NCBI GenBank assembly: GCA_000004985.1
Contig: GG738903.1
Reading direction: 5' to 3' (one strand)
Origin: Naegleria gruberi
Lineage: Eukaryota
Length of the DNA stretch: 64,000 nt
Shown here: positions 53,803 to 62,323 of the stretch, piece after piece
How the letters are laid out: every line of letters begins with the position of its first letter
Numbering within the stretch: position 1 is the stretch's first letter
Notes under the pieces: model-generated
What the model was told of the DNA's origin: nothing
Seen by the model: the letters and a program-made list of their open reading frames with translations, nothing else
Database searches by the model: none
Translations under genes and position numbers: made by a program

Positions 53803-55164
53803 ATGCCAAACATCAACATTCGACTTCGACAAGCCAAAAACTTGGCAGCAAAAGACCTTTCCAAAACGTCGGACCCATTGGTAATTTGCACAGTTAACAA
53901 CAAGAAATCATTCAAGACAGAACCAATCATGATGGACTGCAATCCAAACTGGGAAACGCACAAGAAACCAATTAAACATGAATTTACGGTGAATTTTGAC
54001 AAATTAACAGACGTGATACAATTACAAGTGGAAGACTATAACATCTTCTCTAAAAACAAACCAATAGGAAGTTGTCAAATACCTCTTCAATTTTTAGAAA
54101 AATCAAAACCAATGGAATTTACATTTGATTTACGTGATACGAAACAAGCAATTGCTGGACAATTGGTAGTTTTATTGGAAGCAATGGATTTTGGAATTGT
54201 TCCTTCAACAACAACAGTGCCTATGTATCCTCTTCCGACACAGCAACCATATTCTCCTCCTATTTCTGTTGTGCAGACACAGCAACCACAACAACCACAG
54301 CCACAGATACAGCCACAACAGCCACAACAGCAACTAGTTGGAAATTTACAAAGGAATGACAGTAGTCCAACACTTGCTGCACTCAGACATGGATCTTTCC
54401 TGACCAATAATAATACAGGTGTTGGTGGTCAATCACCTATTCAACAGCATCCATTGCAAACTTCTCAGAGTTTTATCATGCAAAAAACGACAATGGATCA
54501 ACAACAATCATCAATGATGATGGGCACAGGAAGTAATAGTGTATATGGAATGCCACTACCACAACAATATGTCAATAATGGAATGCAACAACAGCAACAA
54601 CAGCCATTGACACATTCCAATTCGTTCATTAATTATTCACAACAACCACAACAACAACAACCACCATCAATGTATAATAATTCTCAGCAAGGAGTTAATA
54701 TAATTTCACCAAGTGCTAATAATAATAATAATATTGGAACTCAATATACTCCTCCACAACAGTATAATCAACAGTATAATCAGGGAATTGTTAATAGTCC
54801 AGGAAGTATTTCATCTCCTTCGAATTTACAACCAATGAATAATTCATCATCTTATAATTTAATGAATAATTGTCAACTACAAGGAAATGTACAAGCTCAA
54901 CAAATTCAACAAAATGATAATAGTGTATCTACTCCAAGAAAGGCATTGCCTACATTACCAGTTAAACAAGGAAGTACAAGTCCTCAAACAATTGGTCAAC
55001 CAACAATTGATTCACAAATTCCAAAACCAAATGAGCTACCTCAATCGAATCAATGGACTGGTGTTGTCACTGATCAATACATTGATTATGTAGTTTCCCA
55101 ACTTCCAATTCCACTCTCCATACCAGAATATTACCAACGTTTTGTAAAGCCATTTAAAATATAA
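53803..55164 (+). CDS. C2-domain protein with long Q/N/P-rich low-complexity C-terminus (453 aa)
   Basis: ATG at 53803. The N-terminal 100 aa fit a C2 fold (IRLRQAKNLAAKDLSKTSDPLVICTV...NPNWE...FTV....DVIQLQVEDYN...IGSCQIPL). The rest is poly-Q/PQ/N repeats. Confidence 0.6.
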   Translation: MPNINIRLRQAKNLAAKDLSKTSDPLVICTVNNKKSFKTEPIMMDCNPNWETHKKPIKHEFTVNFDKLTDVIQLQVEDYNIFSKNKPIGSCQIPLQFLEKSKPMEFTFDLRDTKQAIAGQLVVLLEAMDFGIVPSTTTVPMYPLPTQQPYSPPISVVQTQQPQQPQPQIQPQQPQQQLVGNLQRNDSSPTLAALRHGSFLTNNNTGVGGQSPIQQHPLQTSQSFIMQKTTMDQQQSSMMMGTGSNSVYGMPLPQQYVNNGMQQQQQQPLTHSNSFINYSQQPQQQQPPSMYNNSQQGVNIISPSANNNNNIGTQYTPPQQYNQQYNQGIVNSPGSISSPSNLQPMNNSSSYNLMNNCQLQGNVQAQQIQQNDNSVSTPRKALPTLPVKQGSTSPQTIGQPTIDSQIPKPNELPQSNQWTGVVTDQYIDYVVSQLPIPLSIPEYYQRFVKPFKI

Positions 55165-55180
55165 ATCCAAATCTGGACAT

Positions 55181-56131
55181 TTGAATGATTTGAAACTTTT
55201 TAAAAAAATGATAAAACGAACAATTGAAACTCTTGTTGATGAAGCAAATGTTGGATCTGAAACAAAAAAGACGAAACTCACTCATGAAGTTTTCAATGAT
55301 GATATTCTGGGTGAAATTTTATCCTTCCATGATGATTTTAAATTCATTGTATTGAATTGTGCATTAGTTTCGAAACAGTGGTTGAATGTCATATTGGAAA
55401 GATCAAGACTTTGTTTTCGATGTTATAGTAACAATTTGAAAGGTCGATTTTTACAAAATATTGCAACTTTGGTGGTGAGATTTGGAACTGTCGAATTTGA
55501 TTATCAAATACTTGGTCTGATGAAACGTTTATCACATCTTCGAGCTTGTTTTAATGATATTGGTGTTGAAGGGGCTAAACACATCAGTCAATTGAAACAA
55601 TTAACTTTTCTTGGAGTGAGTGGTAATTTTGTTGGAGTGGAAGGAGCCAAATACATTAGTCAATTGAAACAATTGACAAACCTAGATATTTGTTTTAATA
55701 ATATTGGAGATGAGGGAGCAAAACACATTAGTGAATTGAAACAATTGAAAAATCTCAAAATTGGAAACAATTACATTGGTGTTGAAGGTGCCAAATATAT
55801 TAGTCAACTGAAACATGTAACCAAGCTTTCTATTAGTTATAACAATGTCAGAGTTGAGGGGGTTAAATACATTAGTGAAATGAAACAATTAACTGATCTT
55901 AACATTGGTGAGAATGTAATTGGTGATGAAGGAGCTAAACATATTAAGAAATTGAATCAATTGACTAGATTAAGTATTTCAGGTGTTGAAATAAGTGAAG
56001 CAGGAGCTAAATACATTTGTGAAATGAAACAATTAACACAGCTCAATATTAAGAATAATAACATTGGCAAAATAGGCAAGGAATATATCTGTACTGAACT
56101 GAAATATTTAATTGATCTTGAAGTGTACTGA
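55181..56131 (+). CDS. F-box-like / RNI-type LRR protein (316 aa), paralog of 52418–53722
   Basis: ATG at 55181, only 16 nt after the upstream stop. Repeats are NNIGDEGAKHISELKQLKNLKIGNNYIGVEGAKYISQLK... Confidence 0.6.
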   Translation: MNDLKLFKKMIKRTIETLVDEANVGSETKKTKLTHEVFNDDILGEILSFHDDFKFIVLNCALVSKQWLNVILERSRLCFRCYSNNLKGRFLQNIATLVVRFGTVEFDYQILGLMKRLSHLRACFNDIGVEGAKHISQLKQLTFLGVSGNFVGVEGAKYISQLKQLTNLDICFNNIGDEGAKHISELKQLKNLKIGNNYIGVEGAKYISQLKHVTKLSISYNNVRVEGVKYISEMKQLTDLNIGENVIGDEGAKHIKKLNQLTRLSISGVEISEAGAKYICEMKQLTQLNIKNNNIGKIGKEYICTELKYLIDLEVY

Positions 56132-56221: not shown

Positions 56222-57871
56222 TTATTTATTCCAATAACTTAATAATTCTTCCATTTTACCATACGAGTTGATGCTAACCTTCCTTAATTTGGCAAAAGTT
56301 GGATTTGTTTGCAAAGCTTTCACACATGCTTTTGATGCAGAAACGGAATGTGCATCAATTTTTCTCAAATTTACCAAATTGGTACACTTGGAAACAAGGT
56401 TTTCATACAAATTGATGCCATCCATATTGCAACATTGACAAATTAATTCCTTCAAATTGGAAAAGACTGGTGAATCGAAAATGATTTCGAATAAAGATTC
56501 TAAACAAGCCAAATCAGAAATATCCAAATATTCCAAGTTAGATAAGGTAGGAGCACTCAAAAAGGTTTCATAGGAACTCTTCAATAAGTTCTTGTTTTCA
56601 CAATATCTAGCACTTGAATGAGAGATAGTGAGCCTCTTTAGATTTGGGCAATGATAAGAGAGTGAAGGAAAGGTTGAAATGTAGGTACTTTTCAAATTCA
56701 AATCAGTGAGTGAGCTTTGAGAGTTTGGTGGACATTGTACAACCTCTGAATTTTCTTGTCTGTAGTGTGCAGTAGGACCTCCAAAAATGTTTGCATTTCC
56801 CCAATTAAAGTTTTCAGCTTTGAGTGTTGTGAGTTTTGGTAAACTTGGAGAAACAATCAAATTTACAAATTCACTATTTGGCATGGAACAATAGGAAAGA
56901 TCAAGTCTAGTAATATTGGTTAAACTTGTCCAAAAGTTTGGGTAAAGAGTCAATCTATGATTTCTAATACCCAAATATTCGAGATTGACCTTATCTTTCA
57001 ACAATTCGGTTAGTCCATAGTCTTCATTTCCAGATTGAGAATGTTGTGCTAATTCTAAATGAGTGAGTTGATTCAAATATTTGGATTCTGAAATGATTTG
57101 CAAAAATGATTTTGGAAAGTCGTGGCTTGTCAAGTCTAATTTTTTAACACTGGACATGAAACTGCTATTGAGTAATTCCTTTGCCTCCTTTTCTGTAAAC
57201 TTTTTCACATTGGCCAAGTTTAATTTTGTCAAATTCTTCATTGAACATTTCTTTAAATTCTTCACACTTTGAATTCCCATATTATTGGATGCTAAATTCA
57301 ATTTTGTCAAATTCTCCAACTTTTTACAATTAGAAAGTACTTGAAATGTATCAACACCAGCAGAAAACAATGATAATGAAGTGACATTCTTGATAAATGG
57401 TCCATCTAACAAACTGGTAATCTCTTCCTTTCCAACTTTGACTGACTTTCGTCTACTATAACTTGCAGTACCTAATCTCACTTTAAAACTAAGTCTTTTC
57501 AAGGTTTCTCTCCACATCTTGGATACCAATTGACAGGAATTCATCAGAACTGGTATATCCAAGAATTGATAAATGTGAAATAAATTATCCGAATTTAATT
57601 GATCGGACGAAACTCTTCTTCTATGCACATCCAACTCCTTCAAGAATTCGTTAATATTACCAACAAATTCATCAATCATACAATTATTATTTACAAAATA
57701 ATGATGACCAACTAATTTCACCTTTTTAGAAAGTGACAGTAATTGATCATTGACATTGGTCATTTCATTAAATAAAGTACCATCAATATTTTCATCAACA
57801 TGTTCATCAACATTTGCAAGTTGTTGATCTGATGTTTCTTCGTGTTTTCTCTTCTTGCTTTGTTTTGGCAT
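56222..57871 (-). CDS. F-box-like / LRR protein (549 aa)
   Basis: ATG at 57871. F-box-like LFHIYQFLDIPVLMNSCQLVSKMWRETL, followed by cysteine-containing LRRs (L..L.L..C..I.D..). Confidence 0.55.
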   Translation of the reverse strand: MPKQSKKRKHEETSDQQLANVDEHVDENIDGTLFNEMTNVNDQLLSLSKKVKLVGHHYFVNNNCMIDEFVGNINEFLKELDVHRRRVSSDQLNSDNLFHIYQFLDIPVLMNSCQLVSKMWRETLKRLSFKVRLGTASYSRRKSVKVGKEEITSLLDGPFIKNVTSLSLFSAGVDTFQVLSNCKKLENLTKLNLASNNMGIQSVKNLKKCSMKNLTKLNLANVKKFTEKEAKELLNSSFMSSVKKLDLTSHDFPKSFLQIISESKYLNQLTHLELAQHSQSGNEDYGLTELLKDKVNLEYLGIRNHRLTLYPNFWTSLTNITRLDLSYCSMPNSEFVNLIVSPSLPKLTTLKAENFNWGNANIFGGPTAHYRQENSEVVQCPPNSQSSLTDLNLKSTYISTFPSLSYHCPNLKRLTISHSSARYCENKNLLKSSYETFLSAPTLSNLEYLDISDLACLESLFEIIFDSPVFSNLKELICQCCNMDGINLYENLVSKCTNLVNLRKIDAHSVSASKACVKALQTNPTFAKLRKVSINSYGKMEELLSYWNK

Positions 57872-58192: not shown

Positions 58193-60328
58193 ATGAAGAA
58201 AACTTCTTCCTCGCTAGTGAGGAGTTTTTCTTCCGTGTCTGTTGTGATGAAAAATAAGACAATGCAATCATCAAATTTATCAGCATTGATCAATAATTGT
58301 CAAGTACTATCATCCACGAGGAAAAATGCTAGATTTTATAGTGTAAAGCAAACTCTTGGAGGAAATGAAGCCTCCACTCTTAGACAACAAGTTGCTTCTA
58401 CAACATCGTCATCATCTTATGCTCAACAACATCAAGCACCACCAGTGATTGAGCAAGTTGTTGCCGAAGAATCAACAACAACAACAACATCCGAACCAAT
58501 TATTGAAGAAAAACCACTCTTCTCCAAGAAGGAAATTATGATTCTTGAAAGCGAAAAAACAGCACTTGGACACTTGTTGAAAATTATCGAAAACGTTGAA
58601 GGAAGTGAAGAGGATATTGATCTTTTAAGAAAAAGTATTAATCAATTGGAGGAACATTTCTTGATGGTTATTGTTGGTGAATTTAATGCAGGTAAATCAT
58701 CATTCATTAATGCCATGCTCGGAGATCGTTATTTGAGAGAAGGTATTACTCCAACAACAGCTCATCTTCATGTTATTCGTCATGGAGGTGATTCTAATCA
58801 AAAGTTTGACGAGAGAAATCAACTTGTAAATATGGAACTTCCACTCAAGTGGCTTAAAGGTATTAGTGTTGTTGATACACCAGGTACTAATGCCATTATC
58901 AAGGAACATCAAACAATTACAGAAACTTTTGTACCAAGAGCTGATTTAATCATCTTTTTGACCAGTGCAGAAAGACCATTCTCTGAGAGTGAACACACCT
59001 TCCTTGAAATGATTAGAAAGTGGGGTAAGAAGGTTGTTGTCTGTATTAACAAGTATGATTTACTTCAAAATGAAAAGGAACAGGACGAAGTGGAAGTATT
59101 TGTTCGTGATGGTATTATTCGTTTATTGGGCTTTGAACCTAAAATCTTTTGTGTCAGTGCTAGGAGTGCAATGGATTTCAAACAATCATCAAGAATTTCT
59201 TCATTCTTGGCTCCTGAAGAAAGAGAACTTGCCGAAAAACAAAAAAAGACCAAGTTGGCTGAAAATTGGCTTGATTTGGAAAAGTATGTTTTGGACACTC
59301 TGAATTCTATTGAACGTGCCAAGTTGAAATTCCTTTCTCCACTTGGTGTTGCTCAAAATTTATCTGAAAAGTACTTGACAACCAATATTGAAGAAAGATT
59401 AAAGGTATTGAAAGAAGATAAGAAAACTATGGAAATTATTGAAGAACAACTTCAAGTATTTTATAATGATATGAAACAAGATTTTGAATTGCAACAAGCC
59501 AAATTGGAAAATATTTTCCATGAACTTTCTGAACGTGGTACAGGCTTTTACGATAACTTTGTCAATTTGTCTAATATTTCAAGTTTGATCAAGTCCAAGA
59601 TTGTTGCTGAAGAATTCCAAACTCAAGTTATTGCCAATACTGCCACTCAAATTGAAAATCATGTCTCTGAAGTTATTGATTGGATAATTGACAGAAAATA
59701 CAGACAATGGAAAGCTGTGACAGATTTTGCCAATAAGAGAGCTAGAATTTCACTCCATGAAGATAAATTAGTTGGAACTCTTTCAAGTGATTTCCAATTT
59801 AACAGAAAGGAACTTTTACTCAAAATTGGTACCACAGCTGAAAATGCTGTTAGAAGCTATGATAAGGAACATAATGATACTGAAAAGCTCTTCTCTGAAA
59901 TTGCCTCTGGTCTCAAGGCTACAGCTGCTGTAGAAGTCAGCGCTATTACAATTGGTGTTTCTTCTGCACTCTTGATGCCAACTGCTGCTATGGCAGGTGC
60001 TGGTGTTGTTGGTGCCTTAATGGTTGGTGCTGGTGGTCTCTACGCACTCCCATACAAGAGAGCTACAATGAGAAAGAACTTTATTCGTGAAGTTAACAAG
60101 CTTAAGGAAGTTTTAAAGCAAAGAATGAGGGAAGAATTTGAACGAGAATTATTGTCAAGTATTGATAGTATTAAGAATTCAATTACTCCTTACTCTAGAT
60201 TTGTTAAAGCTGAACATGAAAAATTCTCAACTCAAAAGGAAAGACTCATCGAACTTCAAAAGGTTATTAATCAAATCAGAAAGGAAATTGAAAGCTTACA
60301 AGAGGCTGATATTACTAAAAAGATGTAA
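58193..60328 (+). CDS. dynamin-like / BDLP-mitofusin-type large GTPase with predicted mitochondrial presequence and C-terminal hydrophobic segment (711 aa)
   Basis: The N-terminus, MKKTSSSLVRSFSSVSVVMKNKTMQSSNLSALINNCQVLSSTRKNARFYSV, is basic and hydroxylated with no acidic residues (presequence-like). The GTPase has G1 GEFNAGKSSFINAML, G3 DTPG and G4 NKYD, followed by long coiled-coil-like regions. A Gly/Ala-rich hydrophobic segment, AVEVSAITIGVSSALLMPTAAMAGAGVVGALMVGAGGLYALPY, lies near the C-terminus. Confidence 0.6.
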   Translation: MKKTSSSLVRSFSSVSVVMKNKTMQSSNLSALINNCQVLSSTRKNARFYSVKQTLGGNEASTLRQQVASTTSSSSYAQQHQAPPVIEQVVAEESTTTTTSEPIIEEKPLFSKKEIMILESEKTALGHLLKIIENVEGSEEDIDLLRKSINQLEEHFLMVIVGEFNAGKSSFINAMLGDRYLREGITPTTAHLHVIRHGGDSNQKFDERNQLVNMELPLKWLKGISVVDTPGTNAIIKEHQTITETFVPRADLIIFLTSAERPFSESEHTFLEMIRKWGKKVVVCINKYDLLQNEKEQDEVEVFVRDGIIRLLGFEPKIFCVSARSAMDFKQSSRISSFLAPEERELAEKQKKTKLAENWLDLEKYVLDTLNSIERAKLKFLSPLGVAQNLSEKYLTTNIEERLKVLKEDKKTMEIIEEQLQVFYNDMKQDFELQQAKLENIFHELSERGTGFYDNFVNLSNISSLIKSKIVAEEFQTQVIANTATQIENHVSEVIDWIIDRKYRQWKAVTDFANKRARISLHEDKLVGTLSSDFQFNRKELLLKIGTTAENAVRSYDKEHNDTEKLFSEIASGLKATAAVEVSAITIGVSSALLMPTAAMAGAGVVGALMVGAGGLYALPYKRATMRKNFIREVNKLKEVLKQRMREEFERELLSSIDSIKNSITPYSRFVKAEHEKFSTQKERLIELQKVINQIRKEIESLQEADITKKM

Positions 60329-61357: not shown

Positions 61358-62323
61358 CTAAGAATATATAAGTACTCCAAATTGTCCACTATCACATACA
61401 TAAAGTAGACCACTTAATGGATCAATAATAATTCCAAAACTCTTATAATTTCCACTAACAGATTTAACTTTTGATAAATCCTCCCTTCTAACCACAACAA
61501 GTCTATAACCACCATTATCTGATACATAAATCAAATCAGAGGCCTTCTCATAGAATATAGAATAGGCAAAATTCATTCTAAAAGATGATTTTCGAATAGA
61601 ATTCCATTTTCCTTGCTGTTTTTCAAATAATTCTAAACAAGAATTATGACTCATTAATATTTCATTCTCAGAAAAGCAATGAATACCAAAACCACCACCC
61701 TCAATTTTCCCAATATCATCATCTAAATATTGTAAATGATCTCCATGTTCACGATCTAATATCATAACTGATTTTTCATAATCCACAACATAGAGTTGGG
61801 ATCCCATAACATCCAATCCCCAGATATTATAGTAAGTTTCTTTAGATTTCCAAACAAGAAGTGGATTCTTCCTCATTATATCAGAAACCTTAATCTTTAC
61901 AACATATGGATCAGTAGATGCATAAATATATTCCTCATCCTTCTCCTTAATCAATTTCAAACAATTAAAACAAGTAATTTCCTCAAACTCAACTTCAAAC
62001 AAGGCCTTCCTTCCAATTGACTTGTTTTCATACTCTTCAGCTGTCTCTGCTCTCGGAAAAACACTCAGTGCCGAACCATTCGTTACAATAAATCTATAAT
62101 AATCATTGGAGAGAACAATATCAAAACAATTCGGACCAACATGCCATGCAGAATAATAACCACTAACATTCAGTGATGAAAATTCGAGAGAGTATCGTTT
62201 GGTGGGGATGATATTAATTTTATATTTTAGGAGGTTAATTAAATTATTATTATCGTGATGATCATCATCAGTGGAAGTAAATTGGGACGGAAGAAAATCT
62301 ATCAGCTCAACCTTTACAGACAT
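61358..62323 (-). CDS. NHL/YVTN-like beta-propeller protein (321 aa)
   Basis: ATG at 62323. Blade-like units are LYVVDYEKSVMILD, IYVSDNGGYRLVVV and LYVCDSGQFGVLIY. Confidence 0.5.
   Translation of the reverse strand: MSVKVELIDFLPSQFTSTDDDHHDNNNLINLLKYKINIIPTKRYSLEFSSLNVSGYYSAWHVGPNCFDIVLSNDYYRFIVTNGSALSVFPRAETAEEYENKSIGRKALFEVEFEEITCFNCLKLIKEKDEEYIYASTDPYVVKIKVSDIMRKNPLLVWKSKETYYNIWGLDVMGSQLYVVDYEKSVMILDREHGDHLQYLDDDIGKIEGGGFGIHCFSENEILMSHNSCLELFEKQQGKWNSIRKSSFRMNFAYSIFYEKASDLIYVSDNGGYRLVVVRREDLSKVKSVSGNYKSFGIIIDPLSGLLYVCDSGQFGVLIYS

What the first reader, a model, noticed from the sequence alone, without database searches (positions are those of the whole stretch)
58193..60328. Presequence-bearing bacterial-type dynamin-like GTPase (BDLP/mitofusin-like) with a Gly/Ala-rich membrane paddle
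The 711-aa protein has a classic mitochondrial-presequence-like N-terminus, a dynamin/BDLP GTPase with G1 GEFNAGKSSFINAML, G3 DTPG and G4 NKYD, long helical stalk regions, and a single C-proximal hydrophobic G/A-rich segment. This layout resembles bacterial dynamin-like proteins and matrix or inner-membrane-facing fusion/fission GTPases more than canonical Fzo1/mitofusin, which lacks a presequence and has two TM segments, or Mgm1/OPA1. It may be a retained endosymbiont-derived DLP acting inside mitochondria.
Basis: partly seen in the sequence, partly recalled or inferred. Interest (0 to 1): 0.55.

Follow-up and report, generated by a model that had tools for sequence, protein, structure and literature searches.

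The report
Mitochondrial bacterial-type dynamin GTPase of Naegleria
This Naegleria gruberi nuclear gene encodes a bacterial-type dynamin GTPase with a mitochondrial import signal that has already been detected in purified mitochondria; it is related to the chloroplast protein FZL and built like the trypanosome inner-membrane remodeller TbMfnL, so it is an uncharacterised member of a known kind.

Summary
Window 58193-60328 (+) is an intact 711-aa ORF, 100% identical to N. gruberi XP_002671692.1 (NAEGRDRAFT_73238). It has G1 GEFNAGKS, G3 DTPG and G4 NKYD, a basic, acid-free N-terminal extension that bacterial homologues lack, and one G/A-rich hydrophobic stretch.

Two corrections apply. The hydrophobic stretch (aa 570-622) is long enough for a two-helix hairpin and is conserved in bacteria. 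The true start is probably M1, not the annotated M24.

The protein is listed in the published N. gruberi mitochondrial proteome with 39 peptides, and its abundance rises with mitochondrial enrichment. By sequence and fold it belongs to the BDLP/mitofusin class. It aligns over its whole core with algal FZL, and with presequence-bearing proteins of Heterolobosea and Amoebozoa. Its closest prokaryotic relatives are Chloroflexota, so an endosymbiont origin is not supported.

Its layout (presequence, GTPase, C-proximal hairpin) matches T. brucei TbMfnL, which was shown experimentally to sit on the inner membrane facing the matrix. The most likely role is GTP-driven inner-membrane remodelling from the matrix side. 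This is inferred, not shown.

Verdict: a real feature, a new member of a known kind, of moderate interest.

The parts
58193..60328 (+). Complete intron-less CDS (711 aa plus stop) of the N. gruberi dynamin-like GTPase NAEGRDRAFT_73238
   Evidence: ORF list. 100% identity to XP_002671692.1. GC 0.351 against 0.334 for the window.
58193..58342 (+). Putative mitochondrial presequence, aa 1-50 (basic, Ser/Thr-rich, no acidic residues, RFY|S R-3 motif at aa 47-50)
   Evidence: Composition and hydrophobic moment. Absent from bacterial homologues. AF2 pLDDT about 30. Cleavage is inferred, not shown.
58343..58516 (+). Low-complexity S/T/Q/E-rich linker, aa 51-108; variable among eukaryotic homologues and absent in bacteria
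   Evidence: Alignment A1. Predicted disordered, pLDDT <50 for aa 1-103.
58517..58645 (+). N-terminal helices preceding the G domain, aa 109-151 (start of the core shared with bacteria)
   Evidence: Bacterial proteins begin here. AF2 helices H112-134 and H139-151, pLDDT about 90.
58646..59212 (+). Dynamin-type GTPase domain, aa 152-340 (G1 162-169 = nt 58676-58699; G3 228-231 = nt 58874-58885; G4 286-289 = nt 59048-59059; family signature RPFSESE 261-267)
59213..59899 (+). Helical stalk/trunk, aa 341-569
   Evidence: AF2 long helices H372-455, H468-520 and H533-558. Foldseek full-length matches to Nostoc BDLP and Campylobacter DLP1/2.
59900..60058 (+). G/A-rich hydrophobic stretch, aa 570-622: two hydrophobic helices split at P596-T597 (membrane hairpin or paddle)
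   Evidence: Only Kyte-Doolittle >1.2 stretch. Conserved position and length in eukaryotic and bacterial homologues. Aligns with the hydrophobic domain of algal FZL. AF2 helix-turn-helix with low confidence at 583-613.
60059..60325 (+). C-terminal long helix, aa 623-711, returning along the stalk
   Evidence: AF2 H605-710, pLDDT 84-96. Conserved P666, F670 and E674.

Best explanation
The gene encodes a nuclear-encoded, mitochondrion-targeted dynamin-like GTPase of the bacterial BDLP/mitofusin class. It belongs to the sequence family that includes plastid FZL.

Proposed mechanism:
1. The basic N-terminal extension acts as a presequence. It drives import through TOM/TIM23 and is removed near RFY|S (aa 49/50).
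2. There is no hydrophobic stop-transfer segment near the N-terminus, so the GTPase and stalk reach the matrix.
3. The C-proximal two-helix hydrophobic hairpin (aa 570-622) inserts into, or dips paddle-like into, the inner membrane from the matrix side. Both termini stay in the matrix.
4. GTP binding and hydrolysis drive G-domain dimerisation and stalk rearrangement. These tether, fuse or branch inner-membrane and crista membranes, as shown for T. brucei TbMfnL (matrix side) and Chlamydomonas/Arabidopsis FZL (stromal side).

Shown: the sequence features, fold class and family relationships (this work), and the mitochondrial co-fractionation (published proteome). Inferred: presequence cleavage, matrix-side topology, hairpin insertion, and the remodelling activity.
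For: - Mitochondrial location: XP_002671692.1 is in Supplementary Data 2, sheet 1 (putative mitochondrial proteome) of Horvathova et al. 2021 (PMC8134430). It has 39 unique peptides and 54.8% coverage. Its LFQ intensity rises 24.4 -> 27.9 -> 29.4 with mitochondrial enrichment. It is filed in the same functional category as prohibitin, LETM1, MTFP1 and Sam50.
- Presequence: the eukaryote-only extension is basic and acid-free. No other hydrophobic segment exists.
- Family: full-core BLASTP match to a green-algal protein with the TMP-TENI + GTPase layout published for Chlamydomonas Fzl (1e-72, aa 107-697, including the hairpin). The match to the dictyostelid Tieghemostelium is 6e-124.
- Precedent: TbMfnL has the same MTS + GTPase + two C-proximal TMs. 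It is protease-protected in mitoplasts and carbonate-resistant. Its overexpression causes GTPase-, MTS- and TM-dependent hyper-branching (bioRxiv 10.1101/2023.06.28.546890).
Against: - No localisation, topology or functional experiment exists for this protein. The proteome shows co-fractionation only and cannot assign a sub-compartment.
- No dedicated targeting predictor could be run here. The published predictor scores on the M24-truncated model are modest (TargetP 59, MultiLoc 40, PSORT II 34).
- Chlamydomonas Fzl is largely soluble, and BDLP uses a paddle rather than a true TM, so stable membrane integration is uncertain.
- TbMfnL loss gave no phenotype in one study, so the physiological role of such proteins is itself unclear.
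- Membership of the TbMfnL clade could not be tested.
- AF2 confidence in the hairpin is low.
Confidence: 0.62

Rival explanations
1. It is an outer-membrane fusogen that works like Fzo1/mitofusin. The hairpin anchors it in the outer membrane, the GTPase faces the cytosol, and the N-terminal extension is not a cleaved presequence.
Against: No Fzo_mitofusin (HR2) domain is detected at E<=1. Every named eukaryotic homologue examined has added an N-terminal targeting-type extension that bacteria lack. The family's characterised relative FZL is inside the organelle, and so is the layout analogue TbMfnL. TbMfnL's TMs alone do not target mitochondria.
Confidence: 0.1
2. It is an inner-membrane or IMS-facing remodeller like Mgm1/OPA1. 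It is anchored in the inner membrane with its GTPase in the intermembrane space.
For: It has a presequence-like N-terminus and a mitochondrial location. Known inner-membrane fusion dynamins face the IMS (PMC10280142).
Confidence: 0.1
3. Evolutionary rival: the gene is a vertically retained relic of the alphaproteobacterial endosymbiont's own dynamin-like protein.
For: It has bacterial-type architecture and 40-44% identity to bacterial proteins over the whole core. It is located in mitochondria. It is present in two or more eukaryotic supergroups.
Against: The best 80 of at least 594 prokaryotic loci are Chloroflexota (Caldilineaceae, Anaerolineae), Rubrobacter, Acidobacteriota and Armatimonadota, with no Alphaproteobacteria. 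Eukaryotic baits from other parts of the family returned the same Caldilineaceae proteins. Identity to the Caldilinea group (41.5%) exceeds that to Amoebozoa (36%). Deep nodes are unresolved, with the eukaryote clan at only 25-39% NJ bootstrap. Nearest neighbours by similarity are not a phylogeny, so this rival is weakened but not excluded.
Confidence: 0.12
4. It is bacterial contamination or a recent, functionally unintegrated lateral transfer.
For: Its similarity to Chloroflexota proteins is high.
Against: The gene lies in a 304-kb N. gruberi scaffold between typical eukaryotic genes (a C2 protein and LRR proteins) and has the host's GC content. Orthologues exist in N. fowleri, N. lovaniensis, Willaertia, Acrasis and Percolomonas; this Heterolobosea clade has 93-98% bootstrap. 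The protein is abundantly detected, with 39 peptides.
Confidence: 0.02

Closest known systems
FZL / Fzl (FZO-like protein of chloroplasts; Arabidopsis At1g03160, Chlamydomonas CrFzl)
   Same: Same sequence family. There is a full-core alignment (aa 107-697, 31% identity, 1e-72) to a green-algal protein with CrFzl's TMP-TENI + GTPase layout, covering the GTPase, stalk, hydrophobic domain and C-terminal helix. Both have an N-terminal organelle-targeting extension and an ambiguous one-or-two-TM hydrophobic domain. FZL acts from the organelle's interior (stromal) side.
   Different: Naegleria has no plastid, and the protein co-purifies with mitochondria. It lacks the TMP-TENI domain. FZL's function (thylakoid fusion and organisation) cannot apply here.
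TbMfnL (Tb927.7.2410) and the MfnL family of Morel et al. (bioRxiv 10.1101/2023.06.28.546890)
   Same: Identical layout: cleavable MTS, BDLP-like GTPase with G1-G4, and two adjacent C-proximal hydrophobic helices. Both are from Discoba, both are mitochondrial, and both have bacterial homologues that lack only the MTS.
   Different: Clade membership is untested because no MfnL sequence could be obtained. [quoted passage not shown] This protein's relatives are Chloroflexota and include algal FZL. Searches from other eukaryotic members returned no named Euglenozoa or SAR proteins. It is probably a sister subfamily.
Nostoc punctiforme BDLP and Campylobacter jejuni DLP1/DLP2 (bacterial dynamin-like proteins)
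   Same: These are the best sequence and Foldseek matches in the PDB. They share the G domain, helical neck/trunk and tip-located hydrophobic paddle.
   Different: Identity is only about 15-26%. The much closer bacterial relatives are solitary ~580-aa genes of Caldilineaceae and allies at 40-44% identity, with no tandem partner in the two loci examined. Bacterial proteins have no targeting extension.
Fzo1 / mitofusins
   Different: No Fzo_mitofusin/HR2 domain. A presequence-type N-terminus. Only weak sequence similarity (E about 4e-4).
Dictyostelium discoideum DDB_G0287331 ('similar to Fzo1', function unknown)
   Same: Dictyostelid members of this family (Tieghemostelium 6e-124; D. citrinum) are clear homologues with long N-terminal extensions. 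The D. discoideum entry is listed as the only mitofusin-like DSP of that species (PMC8565484).
   Different: I did not retrieve the D. discoideum sequence itself, so the equivalence is inferred from its sister species. It is uncharacterised.

Membership tests
Dynamin superfamily | Large GTPase with a Dynamin_N-type G domain and G1, G3 and G4 motifs | tested here: met
   Pfam Dynamin_N 1.2e-22, above the gathering score. GEFNAGKS, DTPG and NKYD are present and conserved.
BDLP/mitofusin class of dynamin-like proteins | G domain followed by helical neck/trunk bundles, with a hydrophobic paddle or hairpin at the tip; no Dynamin_M, GED or PH domain | tested here: met
FZL family | Full-length sequence homology to FZL orthologues (GTPase + stalk + hydrophobic domain + C-terminal coiled coil) | tested here: met
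   BLASTP 1e-72 over aa 107-697 to Myrmecia bisecta P0244. P0244 has the TMP-TENI + GTPase layout described for CrFzl. The Arabidopsis and Chlamydomonas FZL sequences themselves were not available.
FZL family | Plastid transit peptide and plastid (inner envelope/thylakoid) location | tested here: not met
   The organism has no plastid. The protein is in the mitochondrial proteome. The N-terminus is of the mitochondrial presequence type.
MfnL family (TbMfnL) | N-terminal mitochondrial targeting sequence absent from prokaryotic homologues | tested here: met
   By composition and by comparison with bacteria, plus the proteome. Cleavage was not tested.
MfnL family (TbMfnL) | Two consecutive C-proximal transmembrane helices required for function | tested here: inconclusive
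   A hydrophobic stretch of about 46-50 aa split at Pro-Thr fits two helices. No TM predictor or experiment was available, and AF2 confidence there is low.
MfnL family (TbMfnL) | Inner membrane, matrix-facing topology | not testable with these tools
   Needs protease protection and carbonate extraction, as.
MfnL family (TbMfnL) | Phylogenetic placement inside the MfnL clade (Euglenozoa, SAR, haptophytes and others) | not testable with these tools
   No MfnL reference sequence could be obtained. Indirect signs point to a separate subfamily.
Fzo1/mitofusin | Fzo_mitofusin (HR2) C-terminal domain; no presequence; outer-membrane anchoring | tested here: not met
   No Fzo_mitofusin hit at E<=1. A presequence-type extension is present. 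Membrane assignment was not tested.
Mgm1/OPA1 | Presequence followed by an N-proximal TM (stop-transfer); classical dynamin G domain with middle/GED stalk | tested here: not met
MidX | Member of the 'core' DRP classes, sister to Mgm1, with a unique closed structure | tested here: not met
   The MidX study explicitly excluded BDLPs and mitofusins from its DRP set. This protein is BDLP-class. No direct sequence comparison with MidX was made.

The most novel reading that the evidence does not exclude
The presequence-bearing proteins of Heterolobosea, Amoebozoa and other, unnamed eukaryotes, together with plastid FZL, form one ancient eukaryotic family. Its original job was remodelling the mitochondrial inner membrane from the matrix side. 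It was later re-targeted to plastids as FZL. Its prokaryotic source was a Chloroflexota-like lineage rather than either endosymbiont. If so, FZL would be a re-deployed mitochondrial protein, and Naegleria and Dictyostelium would be tractable systems for an interior dynamin machinery missing from animals and fungi.
Probability: 0.25. Interest if true: 0.65.

Novelty: new member of a known kind. Interest (0 to 1): 0.38.

Why it matters
Animals and fungi remodel mitochondria with Mfn/Fzo1 from the cytosol and OPA1/Mgm1 from the intermembrane space. Most other eukaryotes lack these proteins, and how they fuse or shape the inner membrane is an open question.

Matrix-side dynamin-superfamily proteins (TbMfnL, MidX) have been described only since 2023. 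This Naegleria protein, with its relatives in Heterolobosea and Amoebozoa, extends that picture in two ways. It adds further lineages, and it links the picture by sequence to chloroplast FZL.

That link suggests one widespread class of dynamins acting from inside the organelle in both mitochondria and plastids. It also shows that the class's nearest bacterial relatives belong to neither endosymbiont lineage. For this particular gene, the practical gain is an annotation and a corrected start codon.

Tried and rejected
- No TbMfnL or other MfnL sequence could be obtained. The preprint has no held supplements, and the 2015 paper's supplement has no sequence.
- The last two homologue searches used baits from other eukaryotic parts of the family: profile A3 (which includes the rhizarian Mataza) and P0169. 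They returned Caldilineaceae again and no named Euglenozoa or stramenopile proteins.
- The look-up of encoding contigs on unnamed representatives (P0218, P0160, P0145, P0215) gave only run or assembly accessions and no taxon.
- MidX was considered and rejected as the wrong dynamin class.
- An anti-phage LeoA/LeoBC relationship was considered. PADLOC gives a LeoBC hit at 1.8e-19 across the protein, which reflects generic BDLP similarity. The bacterial homologues examined are solitary genes among housekeeping neighbours.
- A cyanobacterial origin through FZL was considered. No cyanobacteria are among the best 80 prokaryotic loci, and Jilly et al. 2018 found no cyanobacterial DLP close to AtFZL.
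- NJ trees with three distance corrections could not resolve deep relationships. No maximum-likelihood software was available.
- Literature searches found no paper in the library that co-mentions Naegleria or Heterolobosea with BDLP, FZL or MfnL, and none that cites the accession numbers in its main text.
Full report
**What is there.** Window 58193-60328 (+) is an uninterrupted 711-aa ATG ORF. An in-frame stop lies three codons upstream. It is 100% identical to N. gruberi XP_002671692.1 / NAEGRDRAFT_73238 / D2VW39, which sits on a 304-kb scaffold. The window is therefore Naegleria gruberi nuclear DNA. The flanking ORFs are typical eukaryotic genes: a C2-domain protein with a Q-rich tail and two LRR proteins. 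The gene's GC content (0.351) matches the window (0.334).

They are invariant or nearly invariant in 73 homologues. Pfam gives Dynamin_N at 1.2e-22, with no Dynamin_M, GED or Fzo_mitofusin hit.

**N-terminus.** The first acidic residue is E59. With 15.3% D+E in the core, a 58-residue acid-free run has a chance probability of about 7e-5. Residues 1-58 hold 9 K/R and 17 S/T. Residues 1-16 have an amphipathic-helix moment of 0.55-0.60. RFY|S at 47-50 fits the R-3 processing motif.

Bacterial homologues begin at the position equivalent to residue ~109. The eleven eukaryotic homologues in that alignment carry extensions of 20-175 aa that are basic and almost free of acidic residues in their first 40 positions. 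AlphaFold2 leaves aa 1-103 disordered.

The RefSeq model starts at M24. The upstream 23 aa align with the N-termini of N. lovaniensis and N. fowleri, and a second N. gruberi isolate (P0121) has Ile at position 24. M1 is therefore the likely start.

**Hydrophobic segment.** The only Kyte-Doolittle >1.2 stretch is aa 570-622, ATAAVEVSAITIGVSSALLM-PT-AAMAGAGVVGALMVGAGGLYALPY. At about 46-50 aa and split by Pro-Thr, it fits two helices. AF2 draws a helix-turn-helix at the tip of the stalk, with low confidence. A stretch of the same length and position is present in other Heterolobosea, Amoebozoa, algae and the bacterial homologues. It is therefore an inherited paddle or hairpin, not a eukaryotic addition.

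**Location.** Horvathova et al. 2021 (PMC8134430) fractionated N. gruberi mitochondria and defined 946 putative mitochondrial proteins. XP_002671692.1 is in that list, with 39 unique peptides and 54.8% coverage. Its median LFQ intensity rises from 24.4 to 27.9 to 29.4 across the three increasingly mitochondria-enriched fractions. This is the same profile as its table neighbours prohibitin, LETM1, MTFP1 and Sam50, which share its functional category. This is experimental support for a mitochondrial location, but it does not assign a sub-compartment. The paper does not discuss the protein.

**Family.** Close homologues occur in these groups:
- Heterolobosea: N. fowleri, N. lovaniensis, Willaertia, Acrasis, strain BB2, and Percolomonas (two paralogues).
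- Amoebozoa: Tieghemostelium, Dictyostelium citrinum, Planoprotostelium, Filamoeba, Clastostelium, Vermistella and Mayorella. Acanthamoeba was the best BLAST hit recorded by Horvathova et al.
- Archaeplastida: Cyanophora, Galdieria, Eucheuma and the green alga Myrmecia bisecta.
- A cryptophyte (Hanusia phi) and the rhizarian Mataza.

The green-algal members carry an N-terminal TMP-TENI domain in front of the GTPase. This is exactly the layout published for Chlamydomonas Fzl, and FZL is reported as the only mitofusin-like protein of plants. The Naegleria protein aligns with such a protein over aa 107-697, including the hairpin and C-terminal helix (1e-72, 31% identity). It aligns with the dictyostelid protein at 6e-124. 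It therefore belongs to the FZL sequence family but is targeted to mitochondria.

The cryptophyte member has a signal peptide followed by 'SFAP', a plastid-type bipartite leader. Many unnamed eukaryotic representatives have short Arg-rich presequences of the mitochondrial type. In D. discoideum the presumed orthologue is listed as 'similar to Fzo1, function unknown'.

**Origin.** In one genome per prokaryotic species (GTDB), at least 594 loci encode relatives. The best 80 are Chloroflexota (Caldilineaceae, Anaerolineae, Chloroflexia, Thermoflexales), Rubrobacter, Acidobacteriota and Armatimonadota. None is alphaproteobacterial or cyanobacterial. Baits from other eukaryotic parts of the family return the same Caldilineaceae proteins. 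Jilly et al. 2018 also found no cyanobacterial DLP close to AtFZL.

In neighbour-joining trees the Heterolobosea clade is robust (93-98%). Amoebozoa is moderate (50-69%). Heterolobosea + Amoebozoa reaches 40-49% and an all-eukaryote clan 25-39%. Naegleria is more similar to the Caldilinea group (41.5%) than to Amoebozoa (36%) or the plastid lineages (32%). A single ancient acquisition and several separate transfers both remain possible. An endosymbiont origin has no positive support.

The bacterial genes examined are solitary and sit among housekeeping neighbours.

**Mechanism.** The closest functional precedent is T. brucei TbMfnL (Morel et al., bioRxiv 10.1101/2023.06.28.546890). It has an MTS, a GTPase and two adjacent C-proximal TMs. 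The MTS is necessary and sufficient for import and is cleaved. The protein is protected from proteinase K in mitoplasts and is carbonate-resistant through its TMs. Its overexpression hyper-branches the mitochondrion in a manner that depends on the GTPase, the MTS and the TMs. FZL acts analogously from the stromal side of plastid membranes and promotes thylakoid fusion.

The Naegleria protein has no hydrophobic segment near its presequence. I therefore infer complete import into the matrix, insertion of the hairpin into the inner membrane from the matrix side, and GTP-driven tethering, fusion or branching of inner-membrane and crista membranes. None of these steps has been tested for this protein.

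**Relation to MfnL.** I could not obtain any MfnL sequence. [quoted passage not shown] It does not mention Heterolobosea. It places Acanthamoeba and Dracoamoeba inside a bacterial subgroup. The family found here is anchored on Chloroflexota and includes FZL. The two are probably sister subfamilies with one architecture, and membership in MfnL sensu stricto remains open.

**Verdict.** The gene is an uncharacterised member of a known kind. No paper in the searchable library connects Naegleria or Heterolobosea with BDLP, FZL or MfnL. The link between mitochondrial Heterolobosea and Amoebozoa proteins and plastid FZL, and the Chloroflexota affinity, are the modestly new points.

Noticed in passing
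window 58193-58264 (aa 1-24 of the ORF): The RefSeq/UniProt model (688 aa) starts at M24. The upstream 23 codons are conserved with other Naegleria species, and a second N. gruberi isolate has Ile at position 24. The annotated start therefore probably truncates the presequence, and the published TargetP, MultiLoc and PSORT scores were computed on the truncated model.
   Followed up: yes
related proteins P0244, P0267, P0232 (green-algal FZL) versus loci L001-L080: The closest prokaryotic relatives of the FZL family appear to be Chloroflexota (Caldilineaceae and allies), not cyanobacteria. This is at odds with the usual assumption that FZL descends from the cyanobacterial BDLP.
   Followed up: partly
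PMC8134430 Supplementary Data 2 (not in this window): The same N. gruberi mitochondrial proteome lists a second, 148-kDa protein, XP_002673838.1 (NAEGRDRAFT_80834), with an HHpred match to mitofusin-1 (1e-18) but only 5 peptides. It is a possible second BDLP/mitofusin-like GTPase in Naegleria mitochondria.
   Followed up: no
related proteins P0124 and P0272/P0130 (Percolomonas cosmopolitus): Percolomonas has two divergent paralogues of this protein, one of them on a very long branch with a ~180-aa N-terminal extension.
   Followed up: no
related proteins P0245/P0279 (cryptophyte, Hanusia phi): The cryptophyte member has a signal peptide plus 'SFAP' plastid-type leader, and a SAM domain inserted before the GTPase. 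This domain combination was not seen in the other members.
   Followed up: partly
window 53803-55164 (+), 55181-56131 (+), 56222-57871 (-): Upstream neighbours are a C2-domain protein with a long Q/P/N-rich tail and two leucine-rich-repeat proteins (RNI-like LRR_6 repeats with the 'GxEGAKxISxLKQL' unit). This is a typical Naegleria nuclear context and nothing bacterial.
   Followed up: partly
window 61358-62323 (-): A 321-aa ORF downstream has no Pfam match at E<=0.01. It was not examined further.
   Followed up: no
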